Notes: generated by a model not told the origin, from the sequence alone. A DNA stretch of 64,000 nucleotides from Yuukianura sp. NJ FZ-2021 (GCA_046563655.1 CM102284.1:2046001-2110000), one strand, 5' to 3'; shown: positions 766 to 19,252, numbered from the stretch's first letter. Numbers and translations: made by a program.

Positions 766-2761
766 ATGGGTGCTGCGGTAATACTGACCTTGGCTTTAGC
801 TTTACATTCCTCAGCATCTATTGTTTCGTTTTCAACAAGTCTGGTACACGGATTTTGCAACTGTGACATTTTTGTCATTTTTGACCAGTCGGAACTCGGA
901 GTAGTAGAATTTGAAAAAGTCGACCAAGTTCCTATGTCACTGTTACAATTTGACAAACAGGACAACTTTTACCGTAGCATCGATGGACTCTATCGTCATC
1001 GCTACTCTCGTCGACTTCCTTGCCATCTAATTCTTTTTCAATTTTATCCAACAAAACCAGCAACAGAAAAGCTGGAAAAGGCTCTAAATTGGATGGTCAC
1101 ATGCCAGGTCAATCCCCGAGTGCTTCAGCTATGCTTTTGTCGTCATTCGTTGTCACATTTCATATGGATTCATTCCGAAGTGGATAAGGAACTATTAATG
1201 AATTTAATGCATCCACAAATCTTTCACATGCTTACGTTTCGTACACATTACGAAGTGCGAATCTCAACGTCAAAGGTCATCACGCTGTATCTTACAATCC
1301 GAGGTCCCTGCGACACTGCAATGATGGTCCAATTTTCATCAGATTTGGTGCAAACTCGGTTGATCCGAAAGTTTCTGGAAGAATTCCATCGTGTTACGGC
1401 CCACTCCAACTGTTACGACGAAGTCGAATTTTTCGGAACATTTAATGGATTCCGGAAGAGAGGATCCCAGTTTGGTCCACCGATGGATCAGTTTCTGCTA
1501 GACAATATTTTACCTAATGGAAATCACACTGATGATGCTGGAATGGCTCCATTTTCAAAATATATTTCAAAATTGATTAGGTTCAAGAGAAGCCCAGAGG
1601 AAGCCTTGGCACTACAGGAGAATGGAAATCTTATGACGACTCGCGTAAAAGCAGCCCACCCTACTACGGATGCTGTGTATTGGTGCGATGAAACAAAGTA
1701 CTTTGTTGTTATTGCAGATGTCGAATTTAACTTTTTATCTTGCGACAACAGTGAGTCTACCTCCTACTTGTCGTTTAAAGCCTACACAAAACCATTTGAC
1801 ACCAAAATTTGGATTTGCACACTCGCAGCTTGCTTGCTAATTACTCCAATTGTCAAGCTTTGGTTCATGTTCAAAAAGGAGCCACATTCTGCATGGCTCT
1901 TCGCGCCAATCATAATTTTTGAACAGGAACTCATCGTTTCTGGAAAAGTTAAAGGAAGCGGATTTTTCAAAATTTTTGTTGCTATAACTCTTGCTATATG
2001 GATTTGCGCAGTTGACAAACGACTACCGCTGTTATGTTACAACTGACTTGACCGCGCCAATGCCAAAAGAAACAATTCCCAAGGTTGATGATGCTTTGAC
2101 CTTGGGATTCAAAATACAATTTTATATGGAACAAAGTGTAGTGGACACGGTTGTTCAAAATGGAAAGCATCGCAGAAAGCTCTCCGCTCGTGAAATTGGG
2201 TTGGGATCTTTTCTATACAGAGTTCTGTACTGGGAATACGATCATCTCATGGACCCAAAGTACAAGAATTGGCTTAATCGACTGGATTTTGGTACTCCAG
2301 AAACAAATCCAGAATTAAGCTACGCTGATTATGTGTTGTCGGAATTTACAAAATGTAACAAAACTATTTACCTCCACGATAGTTCGAGGTTGAACGACTT
2401 TTATTTGAGAGCATATCGCAGAAATACTTCTGCTCAGATCTACTATGGACAAGAATCTGGATTTTTGAAGAAAAATATCTTCTGGGCTATTGGAGTAATG
2501 AGTGAAGACAGAGACAGGAAAATTTACTTGCGAATTCAATCAATCATTCATTCAGGAATTTTATATCATAAGTTCAATGGACGAACGGAAAAAATCTTTT
2601 TGGAAAACTTTTTTCAGCGCACCTTTAAATACGGTCCACTTGACTTGCAAAATTCGATAATCTCTTTATTTCCCATTTACGGAGGGTGCCTTTCGGCAGC
2701 ATTTTTGGCTCTAGTTTACGAAACTGGAAGACATTTCATATTTAAAATGTATTTTAAATAA
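766..2761 (+). pseudogene. Divergent ionotropic-receptor-like gene split by a frameshift near 1984-1996
   Basis: ORFs 766..2046 and 1991..2761 together align collinearly with the intact paralogue 4765..6762. There are 13 nt between GCT and TAT-GGA where the paralogue has 9 nt, a net +4. Confidence 0.75.
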
Positions 2762-3450
2762 ACCCTTGCACATAAATTTATCGAAGTGAAAAAAAATGGA
2801 AAATTGTTTCATTTAATTTTTACTCAAATACTTAAATTAGAGTTTTTTCTGTTTTCGTTTCATATTGCTAAAGCTAACAATCGTTTCCCAGAATCGATTT
2901 TATTACTGTATGCTTTAAAAGTCTAGACAGAATTTTATGAAATGGTCCGAAGCCATTTCCCTGTTTTTGAATTTTTTTTTTATTTTTTGTTGTTAAAATT
3001 TAAATTTATATCTTAGCATTAGTATTGACAGGTTGAGGCGTCATGCTAACGGCGTGTTTCTGACATGAGTTTTGAAGCAAAACTGTTTTTCAGTAAGGAC
3101 AGAGAATATTGTTAAAAAATTGTTTAAAAACAGACAACTTTCACGTGAAAAGTGGTGTGGAATTTTGATGCAGTTTGTTTTTCAACAAACAAAAATTTAC
3201 TTCAACTTGTGCATGTGCTGCATGTCATCTCCGTGACTCGCTACATACTTTCAAATTTTGGTTGGTAAAAACGCGGCCTTCAGAATAGAGTTTAACACAT
3301 TTGACTTAATTAATCCCCTTATAAAACCCGTTATAATAATTGTGCAATTAATACTATTACGTAATACGTTAATGCGCTAATTCAAATCTTCGAAAAAAAA
3401 GGCAAACCTGCAATAAGCTTTGTATATCTTCTTACGCGCAATGCATAGTA

Positions 3451-4413
3451 CAGAGGGTGTTCGGTCCTATTTTACACACTTGAGAAACCAGTCTCATTTG
3501 AATACGGGTAAAGTTTGATTAACTTTTTTTGGAGGGGTTCACTCTCAACCCCTTTCCAGACACTGTCAATTTTTTTGGAAGTGCCAACATACGTAATGCC
3601 TAAGCATTTAGCGCCGGAAGTGGTGGCATTGATAAAACTGTTTTCCAGAGGCAAAAATACACAAAAAGTTGATTTTTAAAAAACGGAAAAAAGTTATCTA
3701 TTTTGTTTCTGCCATAGAAGTAGGTATTTAGCCAGTTCTGTTAGACGAAATTGAATTTACAATTTTACGTGACGTCGTTTGCTTGAAATCTTAATTTAAA
3801 AAAACGCAAAATCGCAAAAATTCGCCTAAATTGCAAGTTTGGTGAATGGATTTTGGTGTTTTGCGCTTGGACAACTGCCGACGTTTTTTCTGTACCTCAA
3901 ACGTCTCCAAATTCAAAAACTAGGCTTCTGCAACTCGTGGACGATATTTATGACCCTTTGTTTCAACGAAATCAGACCTCGTTTAACTTCAGCAGGCTCG
4001 ACGAAATTTTTTCTCCAAAATTTTTCCCGTGATCACGACATCACAACAATTAACGCAGTACACTTGGGTTTTGGAAAAAAAACAAGATGTCAAGGTCACT
4101 CCCAATTTGGAAGTGTCTGTTGAAAGCCCTGGCCTACTTACAATTCAATTTTTTAGCTTTGGAGTACGTGAAACACGACCTTGTTGTCAAAAACTCAAAA
4201 CTTAAAATAGGTTTTGGAAACTTTTTTTTTGAGAGGGTAATCTGATATCCTCTAAAACTTGTCGAAACGTTTCCAAAACGTAGACCCTGACACTTCAATT
4301 ACATAGCAAACTGGTTGATGAACAAACTGAGAGCAAAAAATAAATTGAAATACGTAAATTTTCTAAGAAATAAATTTTTGAAAAGTGTGTAAAATAGGAC
4401 CGAACACCCTCTG
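3451..4413. mobile_element. Non-autonomous Tc1/mariner-type DNA element
   Basis: 31-bp perfect terminal inverted repeat CAGAGGGTGTTCGGTCCTATTTTACACACTT at 3451-3481 and 4383-4413. TA flanks both ends. No transposase ORF is present. Confidence 0.9.
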
Positions 4414-4764
4414 TAAATCTTAATAAAAACATAAAAGACATATACGATAATCGTTGTGTAACATGAAACTATGCTTGCAAGACTTGAATACTAATTATAG
4501 TCAATTTTGCTAAGCGTTGCGCTTTGCCTGGAAAATTTTTGAAGGATAAGGCGGAGAAAAATATAGGATTGGAAATATGTAATTCGTCCTGAAATGCTCT
4601 ACGATCAGGATGTTCGTTGCATGCATGAAAGTTTTACTTTTGGTAAATGTCAGAACAAAAATTGCTAACTTGGGTGAATATAAATAAATACATAAGCTCT
4701 GCCATTTCGGTTTGCAACATTTCTGTAGTGTTTGTAAAGTAAGCAAAAATATACTAGCTGAACA

Positions 4765-6762
4765 ATGGGTCCTATTGTACTGCTGATATTAGTTTTAGCT
4801 GTACTATTGTCAGCATCTATTGTTCCATTTTCAACAATCCTGGTACAAGAATTTGCCAACTGTGACATTTTTGTCATTTTTGATCAGCCGCAGATAGGAG
4901 TTGTGGAATTTGAAAAAATCGATAGAGTTCCAATGTCACTTCTCCATTACAGCCACAATTATTTCAAAAAGAAAAAGTTTGACTCATGCGTCGCAGGACT
5001 TGAACGTCATCGCTACTCCCGTAGATTCCGCTGCCATCTAATCCTGTTCCAAGTGAACCCAGAACTAACAGACCCTGGAAGCGTTGATATCGCTCGGAAG
5101 TGGATTGCCAAATGCGACTGCCACGATACCAGTCCTGACCCATGCTTTTGTCGTACTTCGCAGTCGCATTTCATTTGGATTCATTCCATAAAAGCAACGC
5201 ACCCGCTTGTACAGTCGGCTCAAACACATTATGAAGTTCAAATAGACATGTCAAATGTCAAGGTCATCACGGTTTACCTTGAAATCAAGCGTCCTTGTGA
5301 GACTATAATGATGGTCCAATTTTCTTCAGAAATGACAAAGACTCAATCGATTCGACAGTTCCTGGAAGAACTCCATCGTGTTACGGCGTACTCCAAATGT
5401 TACGACGAAATTATAGTTGAAGGGCTACCGAGTAACTACAGGAAGAGGGGATCCAGTGATGGTCATCCTCTTGACAACTTTCTGTTAGACAATATTTTAC
5501 CAAATGGTAACAACACTAACGCAGGCATGGCTTCGTTTTCAAAATTTGTTTCAAAATTGGAGCGCATTCGGGAAACGCGTGGACCTTCTGAACATAATGG
5601 CGAAAATGCCGCTCGAGTATTAGGAAAGCAACTTGTCGCAGAAGCTGTACATGTTGGAGTAACGTACTTCGTTCTTGTTAGTGACATTGAATTTAACTTT
5701 TTGTCTTGCGATAACAACCAGTCCATTTCCTACCTGCCATTCAAAGCGTACATACAACCGTTTGACTCCAAAACTTGGATTTGCACACTAGCCGCCATTT
5801 TGTCAATTTGTCCAATTGTCAAACTTTGGTTCATGTTCAAAAAAGAGCCTCATTCTGCTTGGCTCTTTACACCAATCATAATTTTTGAACAAGAACTTAT
5901 CATTTCTGGAAAAGTTGGAAGAAGCGGACTTTTCAAAATTTTTCTTGCTACCTTTCTGTTTGGGTTTGTGCAATTGACAAACGACTACCGCTGTTATGTT
6001 ACAACTGACTTGACGGCGCCCATGCCAAAAGATACAATTCCAAAGGTAGATGATGCTGTGAGCTTGGGATTCATAATTCAATTTGATCTGGATAAGAACG
6101 TACTCGCTACCATTACTAAGATAAAGAAAGTACTAGATTCAAGCGCGTATGCACAAATTACAAAAGAAACTGTTATGCGCAAAATTCTTGAGCAGGAAAG
6201 TATGAATGCCTCGAATGAAAAATACTACAGGAAATGGATAGAACAAATGGATAAGAATTTCCCAGATTCAAACTATGCAGAATATGTCGTGTCGGAATTT
6301 ACAAAATGCAACAAAACTATTTTCCTCCACGACAGTTCGCAGCTGAACGACTTCTATTTGCGGGCATTTCGTAAAAATTCTTCAGTTGATATCTACTACG
6401 GACAAGAATCTGGACTTTTAAAGAGAAATTTTTTCTGGGGTATTGGAATGATGAATGAAGACCGAGATGGAAAAATTTACCGCCGAATTCAATCACTCAT
6501 ACACTCCGGAATTGTGTATCACAGGTTCAGCGGACGAACAGAAAAAATGTATTTGGAAAATTTTTTTCATCGCACGTTCAAATATGCTCCACTCGATTTA
6601 CAAAATTCAATCATTTCCTTATTTCCAATCTACGGAGGGTGCCTTTCGGCAGCATTTTTGGCTCTAGTCTGGGAAGCTGGACGGCATTTCATTTCTAAGT
6701 TGATTAGCAAATATTCAGGATTTTTCCGATTTTTATTTCAAACGAAGATGACTATAAAGTAG
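4765..6762 (+). CDS. Divergent ionotropic receptor (IR)-like membrane protein, single exon, 665 aa
   Basis: Signal peptide; pre-M1 'FNFLSC...YIQPFDSKTWICTL'; a degenerate M3 'LTNDYRCYVTTDLTAP'; 'QSLIHSGI' and a C-terminal TM ending '..LVWE'. This matches the topology of divergent arthropod IRs. Confidence 0.7.
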   Translation: MGPIVLLILVLAVLLSASIVPFSTILVQEFANCDIFVIFDQPQIGVVEFEKIDRVPMSLLHYSHNYFKKKKFDSCVAGLERHRYSRRFRCHLILFQVNPELTDPGSVDIARKWIAKCDCHDTSPDPCFCRTSQSHFIWIHSIKATHPLVQSAQTHYEVQIDMSNVKVITVYLEIKRPCETIMMVQFSSEMTKTQSIRQFLEELHRVTAYSKCYDEIIVEGLPSNYRKRGSSDGHPLDNFLLDNILPNGNNTNAGMASFSKFVSKLERIRETRGPSEHNGENAARVLGKQLVAEAVHVGVTYFVLVSDIEFNFLSCDNNQSISYLPFKAYIQPFDSKTWICTLAAILSICPIVKLWFMFKKEPHSAWLFTPIIIFEQELIISGKVGRSGLFKIFLATFLFGFVQLTNDYRCYVTTDLTAPMPKDTIPKVDDAVSLGFIIQFDLDKNVLATITKIKKVLDSSAYAQITKETVMRKILEQESMNASNEKYYRKWIEQMDKNFPDSNYAEYVVSEFTKCNKTIFLHDSSQLNDFYLRAFRKNSSVDIYYGQESGLLKRNFFWGIGMMNEDRDGKIYRRIQSLIHSGIVYHRFSGRTEKMYLENFFHRTFKYAPLDLQNSIISLFPIYGGCLSAAFLALVWEAGRHFISKLISKYSGFFRFLFQTKMTIK

Positions 6763-6864
6763 GCACCGACACAGTAACTTATCCATATAGGGAAAAAATT
6801 AAATCAAAGTTTAACGTTGTGAGGACCGGTAATACCAAACACCTATACGTAATAAGATCCCAAG

Positions 6865-7249
6865 CAGTGTTGCTGGACAGTTAAACGTCCAGTGGCTTAA
6901 TTGCGACTTCACTGGACAACCACTGGAAGAAATGCACCCGAAATGGATGAAACTTTGTGCATGGAAGAAACTAAGAATTTAGCGCAAAATGCAAAAAATT
7001 TCAGATTTAAAATTACAAAGTAATATCAAAAAAAAAGTATTCTTTCATCGTCAAAATTAATTATTTATTTAGAACTCATACAAAAACGATATTTACTTTG
7101 CTTTTGTACCGTATGAGCTTTTTGTTTTAATTAATTCAAGCCCCGCGGGCAAAGCTCCGACCCTTTGGATTCATCCGTTTCGTCCATTTTCTCCACTGCA
7201 TATCCAGCCATGGACGAAATTTCGAAAAAGTGCATATCCAGCAACACTG
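6865..7249. mobile_element. hAT-type MITE
   Basis: 13-bp TIR CAGTGTTGCTGGA / TCCAGCAACACTG and an 8-bp target-site duplication ATCCCAAG at 6857-6864 and 7250-7257. Confidence 0.9.
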
Positions 7250-7577
7250 ATCCCAAGGCACTGGAGAGAATGTAGTTCAGGTTTAATTTAATTTATTCGA
7301 AGTAATTTAAAAACTATATGTTCCTCTTCCTGCACACTGTTCAATTAACTTTGTACATATTAAAAAATTTGCGCATAATCCCGATATTATGTATTGGCAG
7401 TGACAAATGTTCTGTTAAAATAAATTGGGGATGCAGCCAGTTGCTCTCTGCTACTCTCTAAGCAACAACAAAAGTTCTACAGTCCAAGATGGTTCAAGCG
7501 TCGTCATGTGACTTCGTTTTCGTACTTTCTATAAAAATCTCATTTGAGATATGGGTTTTCATTCTTCGTTTGTTAAC

Positions 7578-10500
7578 CTATGCTGCTGGTATAGAGGTAT
7601 TCCGTACCAACCGGAATCCAATGAATGCGTACTCGTAGTTCCCTTGGTACCAGTTTCTGAAGCTGCGACGTTCTGCAATCTTTGGATGTGTAGCCCAAGA
7701 AGCTCCAAGGCAAACGTAGTGGTTCCCTTCAAAAAAGTCGGAAGAGTATCCCGGGTAGATTTGGGAAGTGACGTACCCGGAACTCAGCGGTCCGAATTTC
7801 GTGTTCGTCCAATCCCAAAGTGCTCCTGGCCCTTGAAACTCCGTCCACTCGGTATTATCTACCGGATGTTCTGACAGAGACGGTTGAGGGTACCATGCTC
7901 TGAAACCGTAGTTGCAGTTCAGCAAACCGTTGACTGAACTGCTTTTCAGCTTGAACGTAACTGCCAATTGTTCTTCGGTAGGAAGGGAGTAGGTGGTGCC
8001 TTGTGGATCAATCCAGGAAATGTAAGCAAGGGCCTCCTTTCTGGAGCACGAAACTGACCAATTTTTGGCCACGGACATTTCAACGGCGCCAAAAACGGAC
8101 CGAATAGTGATCTTGTCGCCGTCAATTTGCCAAGATTTCGGGTAATTTTTGTTCCCGGTTGACTGAAGAAACTTGAGATACTCTGCATTTGTCACCTAAA
8201 AATTAAAAACTACATTTAAAGAAATTCAATTTTTTTTACAACAAATTCGTTCAGAAAATGTTTCCAATCATTCTTGTTTTTGAAAAAGAATTAGTACTCA
8301 ATGTAAATTTCGCTTACTTGGCGCGTTTGAATTTGAAATGGGTCCATTTTGCCACATTTAACACTGGGATGTTCGTTGTCCCACCCAAAGGGAGTGGTCA
8401 AATCGGTCCAGTTTTGGTCATCTTCCAGCTCAGGGTCATTGTGTCCAAGAGTCAAAAGAGAATCCAAAATAGCCGACGGGTTGACAGTAATCCAGGATGC
8501 ATCAGTTGCTGGTTCCTTCTGCGCAGACTCTCCTTCTAGCCATGGGCATCTGATGCCTGTTGGTCGATTAGTCAGATTCGACTGAACGAGCATGTAGAGA
8601 ATGGTTTCCAAATGCATTGCCTGATGCTCAAAAGTCATGAACAAAATTCTGGCGCGTCTGCGCGTGAGGTCTTTGTTGTTCATGAGAAGGCAGTCGAGTC
8701 GTTTCCGAACTTCATTTCTATAAGTGATGATGTCTGGTAAAGCGGGCCAACTTTCAGGCACTTTGGAGTGCTCGTGACACTTTGTCGGATTTTCCACTTC
8801 GGGGTCAATGCCCCTCTCGAAAATTTCGGTAAAGTAGGCCGGTTCGGTTGGTGCAAGATCAAATGCCCTTGATAGTTGAATATCCAGAAAAGCCGGAATG
8901 TGTCCAATGTAAAAGATGAAGGGATGACGAAGATCAATTGGTTTTTCAAGAAGCATATCTGGATGACGAATCATGTCCATTGTCACGAGATCCCAAGCAG
9001 CCCATAATTCATTCCAATCTTCACTCGTAGGAATTGCCAATCCTGTTCGGTTTTCTCCAGCAGTTGTTCGGCTCCAGTCGAATTCAATCGGAAGACATGG
9101 CTGGAAAAACGGAACTTTGCGAAGCATGAACAAGTCGTAACGCTTGCTGGGGCTGGGCCACTGCCCAATTTTTGCCATTTTCGTGTCTTGGAACAACTTG
9201 GACGATTCTGCCAGCGACCACTTGTATGAGTACTCCACATTGATAAGTTCATCCTTCACGACGGAAATCTTCGTTATGTTTCCAGTAGCAGTTTCATAAA
9301 GCATGTCATGTGACTCCAGTACTTTGTAGTAAGCCTCATGCCTTCCAATGTCTTCATTGTATCTTTAAAAGAAAATTTTTTTTTTGCTTTTCGATTAAAA
9401 ACGTTTTCTTATTAAGAAGAACCTCAGTATTTTTTTGAATTTCTTACCTGCCAAAGTAATCGAACTTTGAGTAATCGAACAGCTGTTGGCCAACGACGGT
9501 ATTGACATGATGAAGCCCGTTCATAATAAATTCACGCGTGACACTGGCAGGATCGTTGTACGCAAGTGTAATGTCTTCTGCTGCGTTTCGTCGATCGATT
9601 CCAATAAGCCAGTTATCTCCGACGTTTAGTTTGGATCGATAAGAAGAAATGAATTCCGTAGCCTCTGACCTTGTCATGTTCCCAATAGAAGATCCCAACC
9701 AAAGCAACGTTTTGGGAACGTCAGCTGGAAATGAACCGATGAAGGCCATGCCCTCGTCGTAAGTGCCCCATAACCCAGCAGTCGTCACGTTTGTGTACCC
9801 ACCAAGGTTGACCAAGCTCTAATTTTAAAAAACTCAATTTTTTTTTCTAATTTTAGAGTTTATCTTAACTTAATCTGGTTTTGTCTAACCTTTTTGAGCT
9901 CATCTCGCATCAAGTCAAGAGCATAGTACCGGATATTCTTTCGCCTTCTCTCCAACGCATCCAGTAGAACACGCGTCTTTCTCAGTGACCTGGAAAAGTT
10001 CAATCAGAAAGTATACTTATTAAGATATCAGACTTCTCATTTGTTAAGATATGTTATTTATGGATTTCATTTATCATGTGGAATATTCCGTCACAGCAGG
10101 TTTGTAAGATATGTCACATGTCACCAATGTTCCGTGAAAATGCCTTTTTTAAAGGAGACGCTTTGCGTTTTTTTTTTTTTTACAAATTAAGGGAATTAAC
10201 AACTTTACTTTTTTTTGCTTCAAAAGCAAAAATACTGCTGTGAAAGGACTGCTGGCTTGCATTCCTTTAGCCCAAGTTACCGAATCCATGTAAATTTAAC
10301 AAATTACACATCCATTTATATTTGTTAGATTTACGTAGATAATGCCATTATTAGTTAGTTTTACCTACAAAAATGTAAAATTTACCGTAAAAAGCTAATT
10401 AATTGATAACTTTTAAAACAGCAGTAAAAAGTAAAAACCAGACATCACGTAATCCGATGCTCTCTCGTTTTACTTAAAATGCAAAAAAAATGAAAGCTAA

Positions 10501-11488
10501 AGAAAGCATTTGCTTTCAAGAGCCTCGGAACACTGGTTGTAACTAACCCAGATCCCAATTCGACAACAACGCTGTTATCCGGGATGGAGTCTACGATGTT
10601 ATCACTGTCCTGGACGAGGATATCGATTTCTTCCTGGACCAAGTAGTACTCTTCCAAGTAGGTGATGCGATCATAGATTTGGAGTCCTTTATCATCATAC
10701 AGAACTACAGTTGGAATGACCTTGGGTTGCCCGTCTGCTGGAGTCAAGCCACTGATTATGTCAGACGTAAGTCGAACATTATGACCTGTGTCGTCATCAA
10801 CCCCTCCTCCTTGGCCTTCCCCCTCAAGATGGCATGGAGCTTCTAGGTCTGGCTTGACCGTGACCTCTGACCTGGCTTCTACATGTGTGTGAGAGATTCC
10901 CTCGTTGCTATCAGATGGTGCGGAACAGGGACTCTGGTCGTTCCAGGCAAACGGAGGCGTGGTGGGTCGGTTGCGTCGAATGTCGATGATGGTGGGGGAG
11001 TAGGTTTTGGTGGAGCAAGGAGAGCGTCCCATGGTGGAGAAGCAAAGAAAAGAAGAGTGGTCTGTAATTTCAAAAATACAGAAATTACAAATGAATTTAA
11101 GTTTTGACTTTTTGGAATCACAACTTCTAAGAAACTGATTTATAGCTTCGATGAAAAAAAAAATGTAAAAGTAAACACTGTCATTTGAGTCGCTACATTT
11201 GTATTGCTTTGCTGGTTGCAAAAATTATTTTACATGCATCTACTTGTAATTTGAGAGCAGAAAAAGAATGACACAAAAAATCACCTTTGACTTTTCCCCC
11301 CATCCATCCCTAAAAATAACCGAAAATGAAAGCAAAGCAAGCGTTATTTGATAAATTTTTTCTTAAGAAAATTTTTTGAGAGAAAAAAAAACTAACAACC
11401 AAGATCAGAATTCGTTTCTGAAAAAGTGGTTAAATATCGAATTTCAAAGGTTCAAAATTCACTGACCTGTTGGCGTAAGAACTTCCAT
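7578..11488 (-). CDS. egt1: Fungal-type ergothioneine biosynthesis protein 1 (histidine trimethylase EgtD domain + DinB_2/FGE-sulfatase sulfoxide synthase EgtB domain), 889 aa as spliced
   Basis: Exons 11488-11467, 11061-10548, 9989-9890, 9818-9448, 9362-8318 and 8195-7578 are joined by GT-AG introns and stay in frame (2670 nt). Motifs: PTVVLYDDKGLQIYDRITYLEEYY, ELGSGSLRKT..YYALDL, LWLGSSIGN, AYNDPASVTREFIMNGL, PIDLRHPFIFYIGH, FERGIDP, HQAMHLE, FGWDNE, GASWATHP..SFRNWYQ..GFR. An alternative start ATG lies at 11032. Confidence 0.93.
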
Positions 11489-12322
11489 TTTGCAGAGGTA
11501 TTGCCAAGATAATCGCTCCTCTTGTGCTGTTTTACGCAGAAGCGTTAATGATGTTAAGTTAGGTTATGAGTGTCGTTGGCGAAGTGACAAGTGAAACTGA
11601 AAAACGCACGCACCGGGACAGCGATTTTGGATTCTGACAAATTGTAACACAATTTATGGCTTTGCCGATTATTAGGAAAAGAAGAGGCAGTGCGATGCGG
11701 TTCAAGGCTGTTCAGTTTTAAATTTGGGCCATTTGGAAAAGTACAAAATCTACAAAAGTAAATGAATTATAATTATCAAGAGGACTCATATACAGACAAA
11801 CAGGAGCACAAGAACACGGGATATCTGTGATGTAAAATGGAAAGAAAGTCAGACCTTTGACCTTGAGTTGCAAAATCGATCCACAGCTTGAGAATAGAAG
11901 ACCAGAAAGAAGGCGTTCAATCCATAAACTCACGAACTGTAGCAAAGTAAGGACACACATAAGGACACACAGCAATCACTCAGAAAAACCTGGAATGAAT
12001 TTTTTTTTCAAAAGCTCGAACATTTTTTTAACAGTTGTAAACGACTTTATGAAATTAAGACACGAATTGATATGGAAATCCGAATTTCAAATTCGATGAA
12101 AGTTTCACAACTTCTTCAACTCCACGCAGAGGATCAGGCACGAGCTGAAAAAAAAACTGAAAAAAAATTATAAGTTTCCAGGCAGAAAAAAACTATGCCA
12201 ACTAATTTACTGGTCTAAATTCTGCACCTAATCAATGAGGCGAATTAGTTCATGAATTAATTAGTAATTTAGAAACCCAACAGTACAACAAAGTGAATAA
12301 GAAAACGTACTTGGCTTAGTTT

Positions 12323-14465
12323 TCAGAAAAATGGATTTTGAAGTTTGTAGCCAATCATGTCACTATATCCAACTGGAGCCATGTTTGGGTCATCCGCTGC
12401 CATCCAAATCTGACTTGCCGGATCCTTCGTTGGCCATCCATCGTACCGCAGAAGAAGCAAGTGCTCCACCATATCCTCAACAGTAACAGGAGCCAAGAAT
12501 CCCGGATCGTTGATATCCAAAACCTCAAAAGTGTGTCCAATTTTGAAGTTATGCTCAGGTTGCTAAACACAAAAAAAAAGTTATGTTATGTATGTTATGC
12601 CGCTTGTATCGCCATTTAAAAATATGTTTAGAACCGTTTTTGTTTTAACTCACAGGAGGCAACAGGTGAAGTGGCGCAGGAACGACGGTGGAATACTGCT
12701 TTTTCGACTTCCAGAGCGTGATGTCATTCTTCTTTGCGAATCCGGCTGGAAGGATGTATGGCGACATGATGTGATAATTGTACCTAACAGGAGTACGCAG
12801 TTCATTTGCTGTCACTCGAAAAGCAACTTGGAAGTATCCATGTTGGAAAACGGCTTCAACCTCAGCTTCACAGATAGCGAAGGGATCCATGGGATGCCGA
12901 GCCTCCAGAATTTGTCCAACTTCGACACGAACAGTACTAGGGTATGCCGGCAGTAACGTTTTTGGAATAGTAGTTTGAGGTTCTACTGGATCTAGGATGT
13001 CAACTCCAACAGTGTTTGCCCAACCCAGTGGATGGATGTGCTCGGAGTTTACATGAAACACGAACCCTGAAACACTCGCGCCAATGAAATTCGAAATCGT
13101 GTGCGTAAAACAAACCGACGTCGACTTTACCCTATCAATACTGCGATTACTGTTAAGCCTATGCCTAGTAAGATGAATACTTGCGATTTGAGAAACAAGT
13201 GATGAGGATGAGGATACCTTTATGGTTAGACGTCGGCTTGGTTTCATAGGTGACATGAACAAGATTTCCAATCAAACCTGTTACGGTAGCAACTCTCATC
13301 CGCGAAATAAAGGTGCTGTCGAGGACTTCTACCTTCGTACCAAGAGGAAACCTGTAAACGATTTCAAGCAATTTCAGTTAAAAACAAAATACTGACAAAT
13401 CTTTCCGTAAGTCCTCCATCATCGAAATAGGATGTGTTATTACCGCTGTTGAATATTCTTCATTTTGGTGTGTAACTCAAAGACGAGGTCATAGGACAAG
13501 GTTTGGTACATCGGGGTCACTTCAGTCAGTAATTTCTTTAGAAATCTCGGAAACCTCTTCGCAACGTCTGGAAGAATAAAAGATTATAGTAAAATGAGGA
13601 TGTAATTCTAATTCTAGTATATAGGTTTGCAGAATCCTCGGACGATCTGAGGACGTAGCAGAACGTTACGGCTGACTTTGAGCTTATGATTGAAACCGAA
13701 ACAACTACCTAAGTAGGTACTACACAGTAACTTGTGATGGTTCTACAGCATAACGTTTGTTCCAAGATGTATGCACTCACCTAACTGGGGATGAAGTCTG
13801 AAGTTGTTTGCAATGCTAAATCCAACCGGATACGCTAAACAGCTACAGAAGTTCACCCAAAGGTACTGATCTGGTTGGAGCCCAAATCGTTCAAACTTGA
13901 CACAAGCACTGTACCCTATAAGACCATAAATGAACAAAATGCCAAATTAATATAGTAGTTGATTTAGCGGGACAACCGACTCTAGTTCGATCAGACTTCC
14001 ACTTCCACTTGCTATCCTTCCAATTGATTATTATGGATGTGTCTTACCTGCAAACTTCGTGATCGTACCTACCCACATAATAGGGTAACCATTCGGAACT
14101 TTTACATATGGATTTTGTAGCTCCGTCATAGCACCAATTGAGCTACTCAGTACTTCTTCCCAAATATCAGCGTATGGAGCCTAAAACGTAAAATGGTACA
14201 GAAAGCTTATGTTAACAGTCAATTGATTAATAAATTACAGAATCTTGGTCCGATTCATCTACCCCTATTATACTGATTTATCGCTTACGTGTTTAAACCA
14301 GCTGACGGGTGGAATTAAGGCCAGTTTTTCAGGATCATCCAGAAAAGTTTCCCAGTAGCTGTCTTCTCTTAGAATAGTAGCACCCGAGTCAGCATCGCCG
14401 CTACTGCCAACGCTGGGCTGTTTAATTGTGCTGCCAGTCCTTGAAGTCTTGCGCTTCCTGTGCAT
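12323..14465 (-). CDS. MBT-repeat protein (Sfmbt/MBTD1/L3MBTL2-like, divergent), multi-exon, boundaries approximate
   Basis: Exon fragments show MBT repeat signatures: 'FKHAPYADIWEE', 'WVNFCSCLAYPVGFS', 'GTKVEVLD..RMRVATV', 'HIHPLGWA', 'GQILEARHPMDPFAICEAEV', 'YILPAGFA', 'LLLRYDGW..QIWM..DPNMAPVGY'. Confidence 0.8.
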
Positions 14466-14933
14466 CTCTCACGAAGATTCTTCGATTCTTGTATTAGGTA
14501 CGGGGCGGGGCTAGAGTAGATAAGATTCTGATTATAGGAATGTAACAGGTGACTTGACAGAATTTAAATGTTTACGTTACTATTGGGCATGAGCGTGCTG
14601 TCAAGGCCGTTTGCCGGTTGAACGAAGGTTGGTGACTACTAATTGTATCCACGTCTAAGTAATTGTTTAATTTGGGGACCTGAGATGATGAAAACAATTA
14701 AATTCTCATCAATTTGCTCATTCGAAGTGATGCTAAAATGTGGTTCGAATTATACATGTCTGCGTTTACATGACAGATGACAGCTTGTCGCATTTGAGTT
14801 TATGCCAATCCTTGTATTGATGAGCCCTTGGCTTCAATTAAAACTTTTTTCAATAATTGGAAACTGGTAAAGTGATTTAATTAGTATATTAATAAATCCA
14901 AAATCTTGTAGCACACACAGTAGCCAAGTCACG

Positions 14934-16448
14934 ATGAGCAGTGAGGCCTGCCGCGATTCAGTGTTACATTGCATTCGTGTAACAATTGTAGTGTCTTCAT
15001 GTTTGGTTTCCAATATTCAATCGCACGTATATTCACTATCAAATGTTCGAGAAATTCTGGCGGGGAAACATTTTCGCATAACAGCGTTCCACATGCCACC
15101 GTACATAATTTTGGATAGTGACAACAAAAGCATTAGCGGCTCACATTTCCAAATAGTTTCCGCAGCATCTGAGGAATTTAATTTTACTACACAATGGGAT
15201 GTGGCTGACGAAGCGAATGCACTGGCGCGTACTTCGAGAGTTTTGGCCAATGGAGAGCCAGCTGGTGTCATGGCGGACATCTATCAAGGAAAAATGGATT
15301 TTACGGTAATTACAGTTGCAAATTTGGCGCGCTACAAGTTTTTGGATTTTACGGTTTTTACAGACGAGGACGTCTTAGTGTTCTATACGGCCCATCCTCC
15401 GCCAGCCGTCCTAGATTGGACTTCAATTTTTAGTTCATACGACGCAGTTGCGTGGATGTCTATTTCTTGCGCCACTTTGGCATTTACTCTGATTTATCTG
15501 CTGGCAGGAAAGTTATTGGCAACATGGTACAGCCCTTATTTCACAGAAAGAACAGGATGCCTAATCCCAAACATACCATATGACCTGCCCAACGAAAGAT
15601 CTTCACAAACGGCGTCAAAATTTAACGTAACAGCAACTCTCACAACGGTTTTTTCGGTTGTGGTAGACCAGAACCTAGGAGAAATTGCAAAAGGTCAACG
15701 ACTTTTGACCTGTCTTTGGCTGTTGTTTGTGCTCGTGCTAGGAAATGTGTACAAGTGCAATTTAGTTTCACTAGCATCCACGCCAGAATCGGCTCGCGTA
15801 CCACAAACATTCACTGAATTGGCGGATCGTTCTGATTACTCCATCGTTTTAAACCAAATTGGTCAAACGTCTCTCCAATTTTTTAATACTTCGAAGAATC
15901 CAGTGTACTCAAACATTGCCGCCCGTTTTCAAAATTCTCTTGAAAAGAGCTCAGTAAGGTGCACCACTCTAGTCATTTCTACTCCAAATACAGCATGTAT
16001 AGGATGGGACTTTACTCTGAAATCAGCCATCTTTAGTCATTTGACCTTGGCAATTGGAGCTAACCTTTTGTCCAAGTCAAAACAAAGTCCTGCTTCCTTC
16101 ACACCAAGTTTTGGATTTCCAAAAAAGTCAATTTATACGGGGCCGTTTAACAAAATTATAACCACCTTGAGGGAAATGGGCATCACGCGGAAGTGGAATC
16201 GAGAAATTCTAGAATCCTACAGACGCAAAGGAATTCAACATCACGCTACACATGACAGCGACTTGCGGCGCATACTCGCATCTATACAACAAACAATGTT
16301 ATACCATGACAGCAGCCTTTTTGCCATGGGAAATCTATATGGCGTTTTAGTTGGCTACATAGTCCTTAGCATTGTCGCTCTTTTCATATTTCTAGTTGAA
16401 ATGACATATAGTCGCAGTGTAGATGAACGGTTGGATACTATTGGGTAG
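14934..16448 (+). CDS. Divergent ionotropic receptor (IR), single exon, 504 aa
   Basis: 'HMPPYI', 'ARYKFLDFT', pre-M1 'IFSSYDAVAW', M3 'VLGNVYKCNLVSLA', 'FNKIITTLREMGITRKW' and a C-terminal TM. This is an iGluR-family architecture without the ATD. Confidence 0.8.
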   Translation: MSSEACRDSVLHCIRVTIVVSSCLVSNIQSHVYSLSNVREILAGKHFRITAFHMPPYIILDSDNKSISGSHFQIVSAASEEFNFTTQWDVADEANALARTSRVLANGEPAGVMADIYQGKMDFTVITVANLARYKFLDFTVFTDEDVLVFYTAHPPPAVLDWTSIFSSYDAVAWMSISCATLAFTLIYLLAGKLLATWYSPYFTERTGCLIPNIPYDLPNERSSQTASKFNVTATLTTVFSVVVDQNLGEIAKGQRLLTCLWLLFVLVLGNVYKCNLVSLASTPESARVPQTFTELADRSDYSIVLNQIGQTSLQFFNTSKNPVYSNIAARFQNSLEKSSVRCTTLVISTPNTACIGWDFTLKSAIFSHLTLAIGANLLSKSKQSPASFTPSFGFPKKSIYTGPFNKIITTLREMGITRKWNREILESYRRKGIQHHATHDSDLRRILASIQQTMLYHDSSLFAMGNLYGVLVGYIVLSIVALFIFLVEMTYSRSVDERLDTIG

Positions 16449-17396
16449 TTTAGTAAGTAGTAAATTTAAAACACATATTGGTTGCCACAACCCAGCGAAG
16501 CAAAACAAAATTAAAATTAAATTATGGCTTAAAAAACACTGAGGAAAAACACAGTTTGACTTTTCGAAATAGAGAAAAGAAGCTGTTTTATGCCTCGACC
16601 TTATGTCTGTCTGTCTGGCCGGCTATTTCCTGGATCTGTTTTTATTAGTAAGCATCTATATAGTGACCTATGACCCAGAAATGTTGTAATACCATTTCAG
16701 AGGTCAACTAACAACAACAACAAAAGTGGTCAAACGTGAATTCACTTACACATTAATGTCTACAGATTTGGTCTCCTATAACTTGGAAATTGATTTCTAC
16801 AAGTTGCTCATCTCATCAACAACTTTTGTTTATAGCACACGACCTCCAATGACCTCCTCAGTCCTTAGTCTAAAGTTAATTTTTTTCATTTTAGCGTTTA
16901 ATCTTGCCGATACGTATGGTAGTGTACGACTTTGTCCGCCTCATGGTTCTCATAGTTATGAATAATTTCTGTCACTTAGAAGTGACGAATGGTGTAAATG
17001 GAAAAAGCAAGTCCAAAAATCTTTAAGTTATTCATGTAAAAACCAAGCATGAAAATACATTCAGCGAAAAAACATAAATTAAAAATTAATGTACAATCAC
17101 GAATTCCTATTCGTTTAAGCTTAGCACCGAAACTTACGAGAATATGCATGATAAATTTTTTTTGGGGGTTTTTGAAATATTTTAGTATTTGCGTAACGCC
17201 GAAACTTTTTTTGCTTTTTGTTTTTTACACATTAAAAGTAAATGGATTTTTCAAGGTCTTGACGAAAGATAAAGAAAGTTTATTAAAAAAAACCAAACTA
17301 TGAATTGTCGGTGCTCAATTTTGAACTTCTTTGTACTTTGGATAGCTTGATTATTCTATACAGCCTCAGTAAATCTCTTTGGAAAAAAAAATCAAA

Positions 17397-19110
17397 ATGA
17401 TTTCAAAAGAAACGCTACGCGCCTCGGGAGTAGCCACTAAATTCTGGTGCCTATTGATGCTGTGTCCATTTCAATCGACTAAAAATTTGGAATATTTTGA
17501 AAAACCGAAATCAGTTATCACTGTTGGAAACAAAACTTTATATTTTTGGGAAGGATTCATGTGCCTCAGCATATTCTGTCATGGTACAGGACTCACTTCC
17601 TTTGTGTGGGTTCTCTTTATGACACCGATGGCTCCACCTGAAATGGTTTTGACGGTGCTTGTTAGCGTATTGGCAGTACTCATCATTTCCGTTGAACTGC
17701 TGTACCTCACTAGGTACGAATATATTTTGTGCTACGTCAACGGTCTCTTACTTCTTAACAAAAGATTAGGTAAACAAATAGCAATAACCTAACTTATTCA
17801 ATTTTCTACTCATATTACTAACTAGCGAAAGCTACTTTAGGCATCGACCTTGTTTGTCTGTCTGCCTGACATGTCACTGCCGGAATTATCTCGGAAACGG
17901 CTCAGCATTTCCAGGATCTGTTTTGACTAGTGGAATCTGATCAGATCTGTTTCCAGGTCAAAGGTCAAGGGCAACCGTGTTCAACTTTTGTTATTGTCAA
18001 CAACAAAATTATCTCTACAAAAGTTGCTCATCTCATGTAGATTAGGTAACAACTTTTGCGAATGTCATGCATGTGACCCTAAGTGACCTTCTTCCGGATC
18101 AAAGGTCAACTTTTTTTTTATTTTATCGTTCATAACCATAGTACATTAAAATCCATCATGGTTCGTCCTCTTGACCAGTCGTTTGAGAATGAAGCAACGT
18201 CTTTCGCTACTTTTGTAAATTCACGTTTTACGGCTTATTGCAATATTTTTTCACTTTTTTCAGAAAAAAAATTTAAGAAAAAGCGGATTGAGCGAGATGG
18301 ACTGGAACTGATTACATGGCTGGTTGTCGTCGTACCACCGTTGGCATCTCTGTCATTTGGACCCGGGTATTATCTGATGCTGCAAGGAGACTGGAAAATC
18401 ATGGTCGTTGCAAAATACTTGCAACTGTACATTTGGCAATTTGATGTCCTCTCAAGCATTGCATTTGGGTTCACATGTTCCACAAGTTGCTTCTATTTGC
18501 TGCTCTTCTTTCTACAAATACTGATCGATATCAACTCGGTGAGCAAGTGGATGGCCTACCAGAATCAATGGTAAGCTGGTATGAAATTTGATTTTCTCAT
18601 TTTATTTTTGAATTTAAAAAGGAAACCAATTTGAATTGAAGGATTGCAGATGGGAATCTACACAATGACAAAGTGTGGAATGTCCAAATTGCATATCGAG
18701 CTCAGCAAATTTTCCACTCAGTCTCGAACGACATTGTGTTCTACATGCTACCAATCTCTGTATCCTGCGCAGCGGCAATTATGATTAGTTCCTGCTTCTG
18801 CTCAGTTCGCTTCGGACGGGATATGAGTACACCTACTTTATTTGGTGCAATTTTGGTAGGTGGAGCTTCATTTTTATTCTGCTGGAAAATTTACCCACTG
18901 GCAGTAAAACACACCGAATCCTCGGAAGACTTTCCAAAAATTTACCGTAAGTTTGGAAATCCCGAGAAATCGACGCTCAAATTTCTGCAGTCATGTCGAC
19001 CATTACGCTGGGAAGTTGGGAATGCTTATGCAATCAAGCAAACCACGTTCATCACAATGCTAAACGACACTGTCATTGGCAACATCATCAACTTGCTACT
19101 CACTTTTTAA
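17397..19110 (+). CDS. Gustatory-receptor-like multi-pass chemoreceptor, copy 1 (exons 17397-17769, 18264-18570, 18642-19110)
   Basis: In-frame GT-AG joins, several hydrophobic helices, and a C-terminus 'CRPLRWEVGNAYAIKQTTFITML..VIGNIINLLL' resembling divergent hexapod 7TM chemoreceptors. Confidence 0.65.
17820..18250. mobile_element. Helentron-associated (HINE/DINE-1-like) element in GR intron 1, with a second copy at about 20950-21410
   Basis: Short inverted pair TAGCGAAAG (17823) / CTTTCGCTA (18201), an internal GTCT microsatellite and T-rich ends. Related sequence occurs near 16590-16870 and 19710-19970. Confidence 0.45.
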
Positions 19111-19252
19111 ATGTCGCAAAGCACAAGGCTACACATAAGAAATTTCAACGTATTACCTACATATGTATAACATCGCCAAACTGCTAAGACGCAGCTATAT
19201 CTTCTTGACGTTGGATGGCGGTAACATTTTCTCTAAAGCTTAGCGAGCACAG

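What the first reader, a model, noticed from the sequence alone, without database searches (positions are those of the whole stretch)
7578..11488. Intact fungal-type ergothioneine synthase (egt1) in an arthropod genome
Seen: six exons splice into an uninterrupted 889-aa protein. It has an EgtD-type SAM methyltransferase (ELGSG) fused to an EgtB-type sulfoxide synthase with iron-ligand motifs (FYIGH; HQAMHLE, H-x3-H-x-E) and a C-terminal FGE-like domain. Its neighbours are animal-type genes (IRs, GR-like, TRPA, Tweedle). Established: this MT-DinB-FGE fusion order is the fungal Egt1 architecture (Neurospora, S. pombe), and animals are generally held to obtain ergothioneine from the diet. Inference: a horizontal transfer from a fungus to a soil, possibly fungivorous, hexapod, giving it endogenous hercynine and ergothioneine synthesis. 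I cannot check whether this has already been reported.
Basis: partly seen in the sequence, partly recalled or inferred. Interest (0 to 1): 0.93.

Follow-up and report, generated by a model that had tools for sequence, protein, structure and literature searches.

The report
Fungal ergothioneine synthase gene in arthropod
An arthropod genome carries an intact, intron-bearing copy of the fungal enzyme that makes the antioxidant ergothioneine, most closely related to soil moulds of the Mortierella group, so this animal may make a compound that animals are thought to get only from food.

Summary
On the minus strand, six GT-AG exons (11488-7578) give an uninterrupted 889-aa protein. Its domains run Methyltransf_33, DinB_2, FGE-sulfatase, which is the Egt1 order. 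The 22-nt first exon has no support; Met18 (11032) fits the homologues' starts better.

The gene lies between animal-type genes: MBT, ionotropic-receptor-like, Tweedle/DUF243, CBM_14 and rhodopsin GPCRs. In four DNA runs from two samples its depth matches its flanks. Its introns are AT-rich and its codon usage has shifted towards the host's.

The first 31 rows of 120 listed longer hits are all Mortierellomycota Egt1, at 48-53% identity. None of the 240 listed rows bears an animal name. Trees place the gene, with one unnamed metagenome gene (P0121/L001, 66% identical), beside Mortierellaceae and inside the fungi. A position outside the fungi is rejected (p-AU 5e-34).

The protein keeps 114 of 116 near-invariant fungal columns, including the SAM motif and the three iron histidines. 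Two introns sit at the same position and phase as in L001.

Fungus-to-arthropod transfer is well supported. Expression and ergothioneine synthesis are inferred, not shown. My paper searches found no report of an animal Egt1.

The parts
11467..11488 (-). Putative exon 1 (ATG + 19 nt, donor GTCAGT); unsupported, may be 5' UTR or not an exon at all
   Evidence: joins in frame to exon 2. No homologue has matching residues and no RNA data are available.
10548..11061 (-). Exon 2: unconserved N-terminal region, alternative start Met18 (ATG 11032-11030), first part of the Methyltransf_33 domain ending in the SAM motif ELGSG; phase-2 donor GTTAGT
   Evidence: (E 9.7e-19). The intron after it has the same position and phase as intron 1 of L001.
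9890..9989 (-). Exon 3, 100 nt, Methyltransf_33 profile positions 72-105
   Evidence: (E 7.1e-06). L001 has an exon of the same 100-nt length, 781-880.
9448..9818 (-). Exon 4, Methyltransf_33 profile positions 112-224
   Evidence: (E 2.9e-28). Its 5' boundary (phase 0 before Ser213) is shared with L001. It coincides with the point where the Podila epigama model P0021 becomes homologous.
8318..9362 (-). Exon 5: end of the methyltransferase domain, linker, DinB_2 domain with the three iron-ligand histidines (H490, H582, H586), and the start of the FGE-like domain
   Evidence: (aligned to the histidine motifs of EgtB-IV 8vih and OvoA 8khq).
7578..8195 (-). Exon 6: FGE-sulfatase-like domain and stop codon TAG (7580-7578)
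   Evidence: E 3.9e-16; EgtB-IV 8vig, E 1.1e-18.
6569..7302 (.). High-copy repeat directly 3' of the gene; breaks the short-read contigs between egt1 and the upstream IR-like gene
   Evidence: summed word depth 1655-19179 against 30-290 in neighbouring bins of X1-X3, with many loose ends at 6865-7126.
4762..6762 (+).
   Evidence: ORF and paralogue. Pfam found no family for it, so the label is unconfirmed.
12645..13271 (-). Flanking host gene exon with MBT repeats, 1.2 kb upstream of egt1
   Evidence: PF02820, E 4.9e-17, 62.4 bits (cut-off 22).

Best explanation
This is a single-copy nuclear gene of an arthropod that encodes a complete Egt1-type bifunctional enzyme. The enzyme has an N-terminal SAM-dependent histidine N-alpha-trimethyltransferase (EgtD-like), which would make hercynine. 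That is fused to a non-haem-iron sulfoxide synthase (EgtB-like, DinB plus FGE-like domains), which would join cysteine to hercynine with O2 to give hercynylcysteine sulfoxide.

The gene was acquired by horizontal transfer from a fungus on or near the Mortierellomycota lineage. It was probably transferred as genomic DNA that already carried at least two introns. It has since been domesticated: AT-rich and lengthened introns, two or three new introns, partly ameliorated codon usage, and conserved catalytic residues.

The last step to ergothioneine needs a PLP-dependent C-S lyase, Egt2 in fungi. That partner could not be sought here. In S. pombe the step also proceeds at a low level without Egt2, so one transferred gene could be enough to give the animal some endogenous ergothioneine.

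Shown: the gene structure, the domain order, the conserved residues, the fungal placement, and the linkage and depth. Inferred: transcription, splicing, enzyme activity, the product in vivo, and the donor's exact identity.
For: Structure: six GT-AG exons give 889 aa with no internal stop. Domains are in Egt1 order.

Function-related conservation: 114 of 116 columns that are at least 98% identical in 51 named fungal Egt1 rows are kept. These include E175, L176, G177, G179, H490, H582, H586 and E588; the two changes are P731S and E760Q. Against its nearest relative L001, pN is 0.24 and pS is 0.80, which is saturated (853 codons). Both coding differences between the window and the X1 contig are synonymous.

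Fungal origin: the first 31 of 120 listed 'longer' hits are all Mortierellomycota, at 48-53% identity and E 1e-109 to 3e-100. The next hit is a Glomeromycota protein at 6.5e-84. In an exhaustive HMMER scan of 1.84 billion representatives the best two are P0121 (62%) and the Mortierellaceae representative P0007 (56%), and the third is at 46%. In the full-length tree, window plus P0121 has SH-aLRT 99, inside a 22-row clade with 19 Mortierellomycota rows at 100 with stem 0.52. The same result holds on the EgtB part rooted with 10 stand-alone EgtB-type proteins. AU rejects a position outside the fungi (delta lnL 182, p 5e-34).

Integration in an animal genome: animal-type domains lie on both sides within one 64-kb stretch. 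They are MBT 1.2 kb upstream, DUF243/Tweedle, CBM_14 and 7tm_1. The nearest Atlas clusters of a neighbouring receptor ORF are Arthropoda, which is a lead only. Depth of gene against flanks is 30.7-53.9 against 32.8-65.7 in X1, and 177-358 against 154-299 in X2, with X3 similar. A second sample under another organism label (X4) holds an identical 1367-nt piece spanning exon 5, intron 4, exon 4, intron 3 and the end of exon 3.

Domestication: intron GC is 0.20-0.31 against CDS 0.48 and the rest of the window 0.36. GC3 is 0.507, between the pooled host value 0.408 and L001 at 0.629. RSCU correlations are 0.53 with host, 0.29 with L001, and -0.07 between host and L001.

Donor introns: window introns 2 and 3 share position and phase with L001 introns 1 and 2, and both genes have a 100-nt exon between them. 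The NCBI model of Podila epigama (P0021) becomes homologous exactly at the exon-4 boundary.

Sufficiency of Egt1: in S. pombe the egt1 deletion lacks all pathway intermediates. The egt2 deletion still contains some ergothioneine, which the authors attribute to PLP or unrelated PLP enzymes (PMC4020840, passages read).
Against: No RNA evidence exists, so splice junctions, the start codon and expression are predictions.

No whole genome is held. I could therefore not look for an Egt2-type lyase, for paralogues, or for an ergothioneine transporter.

The listed short-read contigs do not physically bridge from the gene across the repeat at 6865-7126 into the IR-like ORF. Linkage on that side rests on the assembly itself plus equal depth.

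The window's tip branch is about twice that of P0121 (0.40 against 0.26; 0.52 against 0.25). That could mean relaxed constraint or a changed function.

GC3 is still above all 16 neighbouring ORFs measured (0.316-0.489).

The host of L001 is unknown. If it is another animal, the shared introns say nothing about the donor, and the Podila hint rests on one mis-started gene model.

Both trees are 'quick' searches with SH-aLRT only, and the AU group was named after seeing the tree. The host taxon below 'arthropod-type' is not established.
Confidence: 0.78

Rival explanations
1. The gene is integrated and of fungal origin, but it no longer makes ergothioneine in the animal. It might be silent, on the way to decay, or neofunctionalised, for example stopping at hercynine or hercynylcysteine sulfoxide or using another substrate.
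For: There are no RNA data, and no Egt2 could be sought. The window's branch is about twice as long as that of P0121. Two near-invariant columns in the FGE-like domain are changed, P731S and E760Q.
Against: The 2.67-kb frame across five introns has no stop or frameshift. 114 of 116 near-invariant columns are kept, including all metal and SAM motifs. pN is far below pS against L001. A 1367-nt stretch is identical in a second sample whose flanks differ by 2-7%. Egt2 is not strictly required in S. pombe (PMC4020840).
Confidence: 0.15
2. Fungal contamination or a chimeric assembly: a piece of Mortierella-like DNA was stitched into an arthropod contig.
For: The gene's best hits are all fungal. The listed short-read contigs break at the repeat 3' of the gene. 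GC3 is higher than in the neighbours.
Against: Gene depth equals flank depth in X1, X2 and X3, and roughly so in the independent X4. The introns have 0.20-0.31 GC and reach 558 nt, unlike the 80-94-nt, 0.28-0.40-GC introns of the nearest relative L001. Identity to any known fungus is only about 53%. Codon usage correlates better with the host than with L001. Listed contig pieces tile 7126-12013, running from the gene into host intergenic DNA.
Confidence: 0.03
3. Vertical descent: an ancient eukaryotic Egt1 retained in this animal lineage and lost in nearly all others.
For: Egt1-type genes occur outside the fungi, for example in non-flowering green plants (PMC13358676, passages read).
Against: The gene is sister to, or within, one fungal phylum, nested under three starred fungal nodes when rooted with stand-alone EgtB-type proteins. 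A position outside the fungi is rejected. None of the 240 listed hit rows carries an animal name.
Confidence: 0.02
4. The transfer is older and shared: L001/P0121 belongs to a second animal lineage rather than to a fungus, so the event predates their split. The shared introns would then have been gained in animals and not inherited from the donor.
For: Window plus P0121 form a 99-supported pair set apart from all sampled Mortierellaceae. They share two intron positions and several indels.
Against: L001 has GC3 0.63, short 80-94-nt introns, and a root-to-tip path of 0.56. That path is like the sampled Mortierellaceae, which I computed by hand from the branch lengths as about 0.44-0.49, and unlike the window at 0.83. 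Its codon usage is uncorrelated with this host. The Podila epigama model hints that one shared intron position is fungal. None of this is decisive.
Confidence: 0.2

Closest known systems
Fungal Egt1 (N. crassa NCU04343, S. pombe SPBC1604.01; PMC4020840, passages read)
   Same: Same three-domain order in one polypeptide (Methyltransf_33, DinB_2, FGE-sulfatase). The SAM motif and the three iron histidines are conserved, as are 114 of 116 near-invariant family columns.
   Different: It is encoded in an arthropod-type genomic neighbourhood. It has AT-rich introns up to 558 nt and host-shifted codon usage, and it is about 53% identical at most to any named fungal protein. I did not align the two characterised enzymes themselves; the family comparison used the hits.
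Mortierellomycota Egt1 proteins (e.g. P0001 Podila minutissima, P0014 Actinomortierella wolfii; names as given by NCBI)
   Same: Nearest named relatives: 48-53% identity over exon 5, in a common clade with SH-aLRT 100.
   Different: The window gene and P0121 form their own long-stemmed pair (stem 0.25-0.31). They share indels that the Mortierellaceae lack. A Podila-like ORF (P0122) indicates an intron about 10 nt away from window intron 4, so that intron is not shared.
L001 / P0121: unnamed 3.4-kb metagenome contig with a complete four-exon Egt1 gene
   Same: Closest sequence known: 564 of 853 aligned residues identical. Two introns share position and phase, with an identical 100-nt exon between them.
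   Different: GC3 is 0.63 and the introns are 80-94 nt. It has one private intron (after MNGL) and none at window introns 4 and 5. Its host is unknown.
OvoA (5-histidylcysteine sulfoxide synthase), the thiohistidine enzyme known in marine animals including arthropods (review PMC9103826, passages read; PDB 8khq)
   Same: Shares the DinB plus FGE-like sulfoxide synthase core with the same histidine motifs (E 4.8e-08).
   Different: As I recall it, OvoA has its methyltransferase at the C-terminus and of another family. Here a full Methyltransf_33 domain is N-terminal. This is therefore the ergothioneine type and not the ovothiol type.
Carotenoid biosynthesis genes of fungal origin in aphids, adelgids and phylloxerids (PMC5636080, title and start of abstract seen)
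   Same: A fungus-to-arthropod transfer of a small-molecule biosynthetic gene, giving an animal a metabolite that animals are generally held to obtain from diet.
   Different: A different pathway and, presumably, a different host group. For the carotenoid genes the product in the animal is established, whereas here it is not.
Plant EGT1/EGT2 (PMC13358676, passages read)
   Same: A recent precedent that ergothioneine synthesis is not confined to bacteria and fungi.
   Different: That paper reports EGT1 homologues spread across the green lineage (passages). I saw no statement there on vertical or horizontal origin, and the term 'horizontal' has 0 occurrences. Here a single gene nests inside one fungal phylum.

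Membership tests
Egt1 (fused histidine N-alpha-methyltransferase / hercynylcysteine sulfoxide synthase) | Complete EgtD-type methyltransferase domain (Pfam Methyltransf_33) at the N-terminus | tested here: met
   four exon pieces match profile positions 2-71, 72-105, 112-224 and 226-303 of 304, each above the 23-bit cut-off (68, 25.7, 99.2, 27.2 bits).
Egt1 | SAM-binding glycine-rich motif (E-L-G-x-G) and other family-invariant methyltransferase residues | tested here: met
   ELGSG at aa 175-179. E175, L176, G177, G179 and all the other near-invariant columns of the methyltransferase part are kept. That the motif binds SAM is recalled knowledge.
Egt1 | DinB-type domain carrying the three-histidine iron site (one His, then H-x3-H) | tested here: met
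   DinB_2 at 31.1 bits against a 24.8 cut-off. H490, H582 and H586 are kept in columns at least 98% invariant in 51 fungal rows. They align to the corresponding motifs of EgtB-IV 8vih and OvoA 8khq. Their assignment as iron ligands is recalled from EgtB structures.
Egt1 | C-terminal FGE-sulfatase-like domain | tested here: met
   59.9 bits against a 23.3 cut-off. EgtB-IV 8vig, E 1.1e-18.
Egt1 | All three domains in one polypeptide in the order MT-DinB-FGE | tested here: met
   the exons join in frame through canonical GT-AG introns. The joining itself is predicted, not seen in RNA.
Egt1 | Groups with Egt1 proteins in a phylogeny | tested here: met
Egt1 | Catalytic activity: histidine to hercynine, then O2-dependent C-S bond formation with cysteine | not testable with these tools
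   Needs recombinant enzyme or in vivo labelling.
Complete fungal ergothioneine pathway (Egt1 + Egt2) | A PLP-dependent C-S lyase (Egt2) in the same genome | not testable with these tools
   No whole genome is held for this window. No such ORF was noticed among the 54 ORFs of at least 110 aa in the window (only 20 of its ORF pieces were scanned with Pfam).
OvoA (ovothiol synthase) | Sulfoxide synthase core first, methyltransferase at the C-terminus (recalled architecture) | tested here: not met
   the methyltransferase is N-terminal and of the EgtD family. OvoA 8khq matches only the DinB region at E 4.8e-08.
Horizontally transferred gene in an animal | Physically linked to bona fide host genes and present at host copy number | tested here: met
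   The window carries animal-type genes on both sides. Depth is equal in four runs of two samples. The listed short contigs do not cross the 3' repeat.
Horizontally transferred gene in an animal | Nested within the donor group with strong support; absent from other members of the recipient group | tested here: met
   None of the 240 listed rows has an animal name. Only the best 120 of 823 and the best 120 of 539 hits were listed, so weaker animal hits cannot be excluded.
Horizontally transferred gene in an animal | Transcribed and spliced in the host | not testable with these tools
   No run on record as RNA was offered.

The most novel reading that the evidence does not exclude
An arthropod lineage makes its own ergothioneine with an enzyme taken from a Mortierella-like soil fungus. 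This would break the rule that animals depend on diet and a transporter for this compound. The gene would have arrived as fungal genomic DNA, and at least two donor introns would still be spliced by the animal. The only closer relative known (L001) would mark either the unsampled donor lineage or a second recipient.
Probability: 0.5. Interest if true: 0.85.

Novelty: new member of a known kind. Interest (0 to 1): 0.78.

Why it matters
Reviews state that animals do not synthesise ergothioneine and take it up from the diet. I saw this in the abstract of PMC7653990 in the listing, and in the introduction of PMC13358676. An animal with an intact, conserved Egt1 would be a natural exception and a tractable model.

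It would allow asking what endogenous ergothioneine does for an animal, such as tolerance of oxidative stress, desiccation or metals. It would allow asking whether a single transferred gene is enough, using host PLP enzymes for the last step. It would also show how a fungal gene with its introns is domesticated.

It adds a second class of metabolite, after carotenoids, to fungus-to-arthropod biosynthetic transfers. The donor group it points to is Mortierellomycota, which I recall as common soil fungi.

Tried and rejected
RNA evidence: the look-up of sequencing runs with kind 'any' listed 5 DNA-type holders and no holder on record as RNA, so expression could not be examined.

Contig bridging: among the listed pieces, none crosses 6950-7126 (the high-copy repeat) and none covers 12014-12381. 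The tool lists only the longest pieces (1258 not shown), and all 30 bins have depth in all four runs, so these holes prove nothing.

Host identification: a protein search with the MBT exon found no hit at E <= 0.001 among 791 candidates. No whole genome is held. The sequencing-run organisms are coded. Rfam found nothing in the window. The host therefore stays at 'arthropod-type'.

Atlas search with exon 5 gave only weak DinB clusters (scores 0.75-0.76), which is uninformative.

The scan's earlier findings gave nothing by place, relatives or sequence. Two multi-word look-ups gave 0 findings. The word 'ergothioneine' alone gave 142 findings; the 8 shown are all bacterial operons and irrelevant here.

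Poly(A) signal: AATAAA on the gene's strand at 7297-7292, 281 nt past the stop, lies inside the repeat. The motif is rarer in the window than in shuffles (91 against a mean of 114), so it is not evidence.

dN/dS against L001: synonymous sites are saturated (pS 0.80), so no ratio can be given.

Only indirect hints came from mis-started protein models.

Structure prediction and complex prediction were not run. The spliced protein cannot be handed to those tools, and single exons cut domains.

'ergothioneine' with 'springtail' gave 0 papers. With 'Collembola' it gave 2, both irrelevant by title and abstract. With 'horizontal gene transfer' and 'arthropod' it gave 6 papers holding all terms, 5 of them listed; I read passages of two of those, and none of the 5 listed, by title or abstract, reports an animal Egt1. 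Searches likewise returned none.


Full report
**1. The observation.** The stop-to-stop ORFs on the minus strand between 7578 and 11224 already show the pieces of one protein. I read the strand and joined the pieces at canonical sites. The exons are 11488-11467, 11061-10548, 9989-9890, 9818-9448, 9362-8318 and 8195-7578, in total 2670 nt. This gives 889 codons and a TAG stop, with five GT..AG introns of 405, 558, 71, 85 and 122 nt.

Pfam finds the EgtD-type methyltransferase Methyltransf_33 split over exons 2-5. The pieces are collinear and cover profile positions 2-303 of 304. DinB_2 follows in exon 5 and FGE-sulfatase in exon 6.

One correction concerns the 22-nt first exon, which is only a possibility. 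Homologues start 10-20 residues before the conserved PTIIDIR box. This matches Met18 (ATG at 11032) within exon 2. No RNA is available to decide.

**2. Is it in an animal genome?** The same 64-kb stretch carries several animal-type domains:
- an MBT-repeat exon 1.2 kb upstream (E 4.9e-17)
- a Tweedle/DUF243 protein (E 7.9e-17)
- a peritrophin-A chitin-binding domain (E 1.3e-11)
- rhodopsin-type GPCR exons (E 4e-12 and 6e-16)
- ankyrin repeats
- a glutamate-receptor-like ORF, which matches Lig_chan only below Pfam's cut-off

A language-model look-up of that receptor ORF returns arthropod ionotropic-receptor clusters, which is a lead only. That DUF243 is confined to arthropods is my recollection. 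'Hexapod', 'soil' and 'fungivorous' could not be checked.

Four public DNA runs hold the stretch: three from one sample, and one from another sample, study and organism label. When laid on 4000-15000, the gene's bins have the same word depth as single-copy flanks. In X1 the gene is at 30.7-53.9 and the flanks at 32.8-65.7. In X2 the gene is at 177-358 and the flanks at 154-299. X3 is similar, and X4 is low throughout.

One X1 contig of 4220 nt covers 7126-11342. X4 holds a 1367-nt piece (8536-9902) without a single difference. That piece spans two introns, while X4's flanks differ from the window by 2-7%. A high-copy repeat at 6569-7302 breaks all listed contigs 3' of the gene, so linkage on that side rests on the assembly and on depth.

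The introns have 0.20-0.31 GC, against 0.48 for the CDS and 0.36 for the rest of the window. GC3 (0.507) lies between the pooled neighbours (0.408) and the nearest relative L001 (0.629). Codon usage correlates better with the neighbours (r 0.53) than with L001 (r 0.29). Contamination or a chimeric contig is therefore very unlikely.

**3. Where does it come from?** I searched with exon 5 (348 aa) against 5.8 billion proteins. The first 31 of the 120 listed longer proteins are all Egt1 proteins of Mortierellomycota genera, at 48-53% identity and E 1e-109 to 3e-100. There is then a gap to Glomeromycota at 6.5e-84.

Among proteins of similar length the best hit is an unnamed metagenome protein, P0121 (59%). 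No row of the 240 listed carries an animal name. The one plant-labelled row, an Anthurium transcriptome sequence, falls among the Glomeromycota in the tree.

An exhaustive HMMER pass over 1.84 billion cluster representatives gives the same order: P0121 at 62%, the Mortierellaceae representative at 56%, then 46%.

I built a 64-row tree on the full spliced protein (786 columns, quick search, SH-aLRT). It pairs the window with P0121 (99). It puts both in a 22-row clade with 19 Mortierellomycota rows and the Podila-like P0122 (100, stem 0.52). The order within that clade is unresolved.

On the EgtB part alone, rooted with 10 stand-alone EgtB-type proteins, the pair is sister to the sampled Mortierellaceae (90) within a 100-supported clade. 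That clade is nested under two further starred fungal nodes. Forcing the pair outside all named fungi costs 182 log-likelihood units, p-AU 5e-34 (the group was named after seeing the tree). Vertical descent is thus rejected. The donor was a fungus on or near the Mortierellomycota stem.

**4. The nearest relative and the introns.** The contig of P0121 (L001, 3400 nt) carries a complete four-exon gene of 888 aa with introns of 80, 94 and 80 nt. It is 66% identical to the window protein, 564 of 853 aligned residues.

Its first two introns lie at exactly the position and phase of window introns 2 and 3. These are after ELGSG in phase 2, and before the serine that opens exon 4 in phase 0. The exon between them is 100 nt in both genes. 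Its third intron is private, and it has none at window introns 4 and 5.

Exact coincidence of two positions by chance is improbable, so the common ancestor of the two genes had these introns.

The NCBI model of Podila epigama (P0021) has nine unrelated residues and then becomes homologous exactly at that serine. This hints that the acceptor exists in Mortierellaceae too. A Podila-like ORF (P0122) points to an intron about 10 nt away from window intron 4, so that one is not shared.

My reading is that the gene was transferred as intron-bearing genomic DNA and later gained introns 4 and 5, and perhaps a 5' intron. This is inference. If L001 belongs to another animal, the shared introns could have been gained after the transfer.

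L001 looks more fungal than like this host, though not decisively. It has high GC3 and short introns. Its root-to-tip path is 0.56, close to the 0.44-0.49 I computed by hand for Mortierellaceae, and unlike the window at 0.83. Its codon usage is unrelated to this host.

**5. Does it work?** Of 116 alignment columns that are at least 98% identical in 51 named fungal Egt1 rows, the window keeps 114. These include the SAM motif residues, H490, H582, H586, E588 and the conserved aromatic and glycine positions of the FGE-like domain. The exceptions are P731S and E760Q.

The histidine motifs align with those of solved EgtB-IV and OvoA structures. Against L001, non-synonymous difference (0.24) is far below the saturated synonymous difference (0.80). 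The only two coding differences between the window and the X1 contig are synonymous. An intact frame through five introns, together with this conservation, argues for a gene kept by selection.

By homology the enzyme would trimethylate histidine to hercynine, then couple cysteine to it to give hercynylcysteine sulfoxide. The last step in fungi uses the PLP lyase Egt2. In S. pombe the egt1 deletion removes all intermediates. The egt2 deletion still leaves some ergothioneine, which the authors attribute to PLP or unrelated PLP enzymes, and they regard egt1 as the regulatory step (PMC4020840, passages read).

A single transferred Egt1 could therefore suffice, at least partly. Whether this genome also has an Egt2-type gene could not be checked.

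**6. Comparison with what is known.** The protein passes every sequence-level test for Egt1 membership. It fails the domain-order test for OvoA, the thiohistidine enzyme already known from marine animals including arthropods (PMC9103826, passages read).

The closest precedent in kind is the fungal origin of carotenoid genes in aphids and their relatives (PMC5636080, listing). The closest precedent for widening the range of ergothioneine producers is the 2026 report for green plants (PMC13358676, passages read).

Reviews state that animals do not make ergothioneine (PMC7653990, abstract in the listing; PMC13358676, introduction). Nine full-text searches found no report of an animal Egt1 (one search was for the carotenoid precedent). 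Supplementary HGT tables, and the annotation of this genome if one exists, could not be seen.

**7. Verdict.** The gene is real and intact, of fungal (Mortierellomycota-like) origin, and integrated and domesticated in an arthropod-type genome. As an enzyme it is an ordinary Egt1, and what is unusual is the host. I rate it a new member of a known kind. Interest is high because it contradicts a textbook statement and is directly testable. Expression and product are still unproven.

Noticed in passing
window 6569-7302: High-copy repeat immediately 3' of egt1. Summed word depth is 1655-19179 against 30-290 for neighbouring bins in X1-X3. There are many loose ends and alternative joints at 6865-7142, and weak 24-nt inverted arms at 6792-6815 / 7275-7298. 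It may be a small transposable element. No link to the transfer is shown.
   Followed up: partly
window 25252-26594: Tandem array of a 22-nt unit (77-nt higher-order unit), 61 copies, 85% matches, strong GC skew (+0.24). It produces spurious long ORFs in three frames.
   Followed up: partly
window 763-2761 / 4762-6762; 14871-16448 / 22778-24307; 17373-19110 / 20506-22266: Three pairs of tandemly duplicated, receptor-like genes with near-identical translations. Pfam recognises only Lig_chan, below its cut-off, in 14871-16448; its copy 22778-24307 was not scanned. It finds nothing in 763-2046, in 4765-6762, or in the three pieces tried of the three-exon unit (17373-17792, 18083-18574, 18640-19110). 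They may be divergent chemoreceptor families.
   Followed up: partly
window 35528-38206 (-): 892-aa single-exon proline-rich ORF with a DUF243/Tweedle domain (E 7.9e-17) and long GGY/PPS-type repeats. It accounts for the local GC rise to 0.49.
   Followed up: no
window 8536-9902 versus flanks, run X4: The run labelled as another organism differs from the window by 33 of 483, 21 of 632 and 24 of 1134 letters in flanking pieces, but by 0 of 1367 inside egt1, introns included. Part of the flank divergence may be cross-mapping of paralogues. Otherwise egt1 is unusually conserved between the two samples.
   Followed up: no
L001 3280-3310: The 3' flank of the metagenome Egt1 gene contains two and a half copies of CCTAA, the complement of the TTAGG unit that I recall as the arthropod telomere repeat. 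This is too short to mean anything on its own, but it is relevant to whether L001 is animal or fungal.
   Followed up: no
P0062 in the tree: A protein labelled as from the plant Anthurium amnicola (transcriptome) sits inside the Glomeromycota Egt1 clade next to Rhizophagus. It is most likely a mycorrhizal-fungus transcript in a plant data set.
   Followed up: partly
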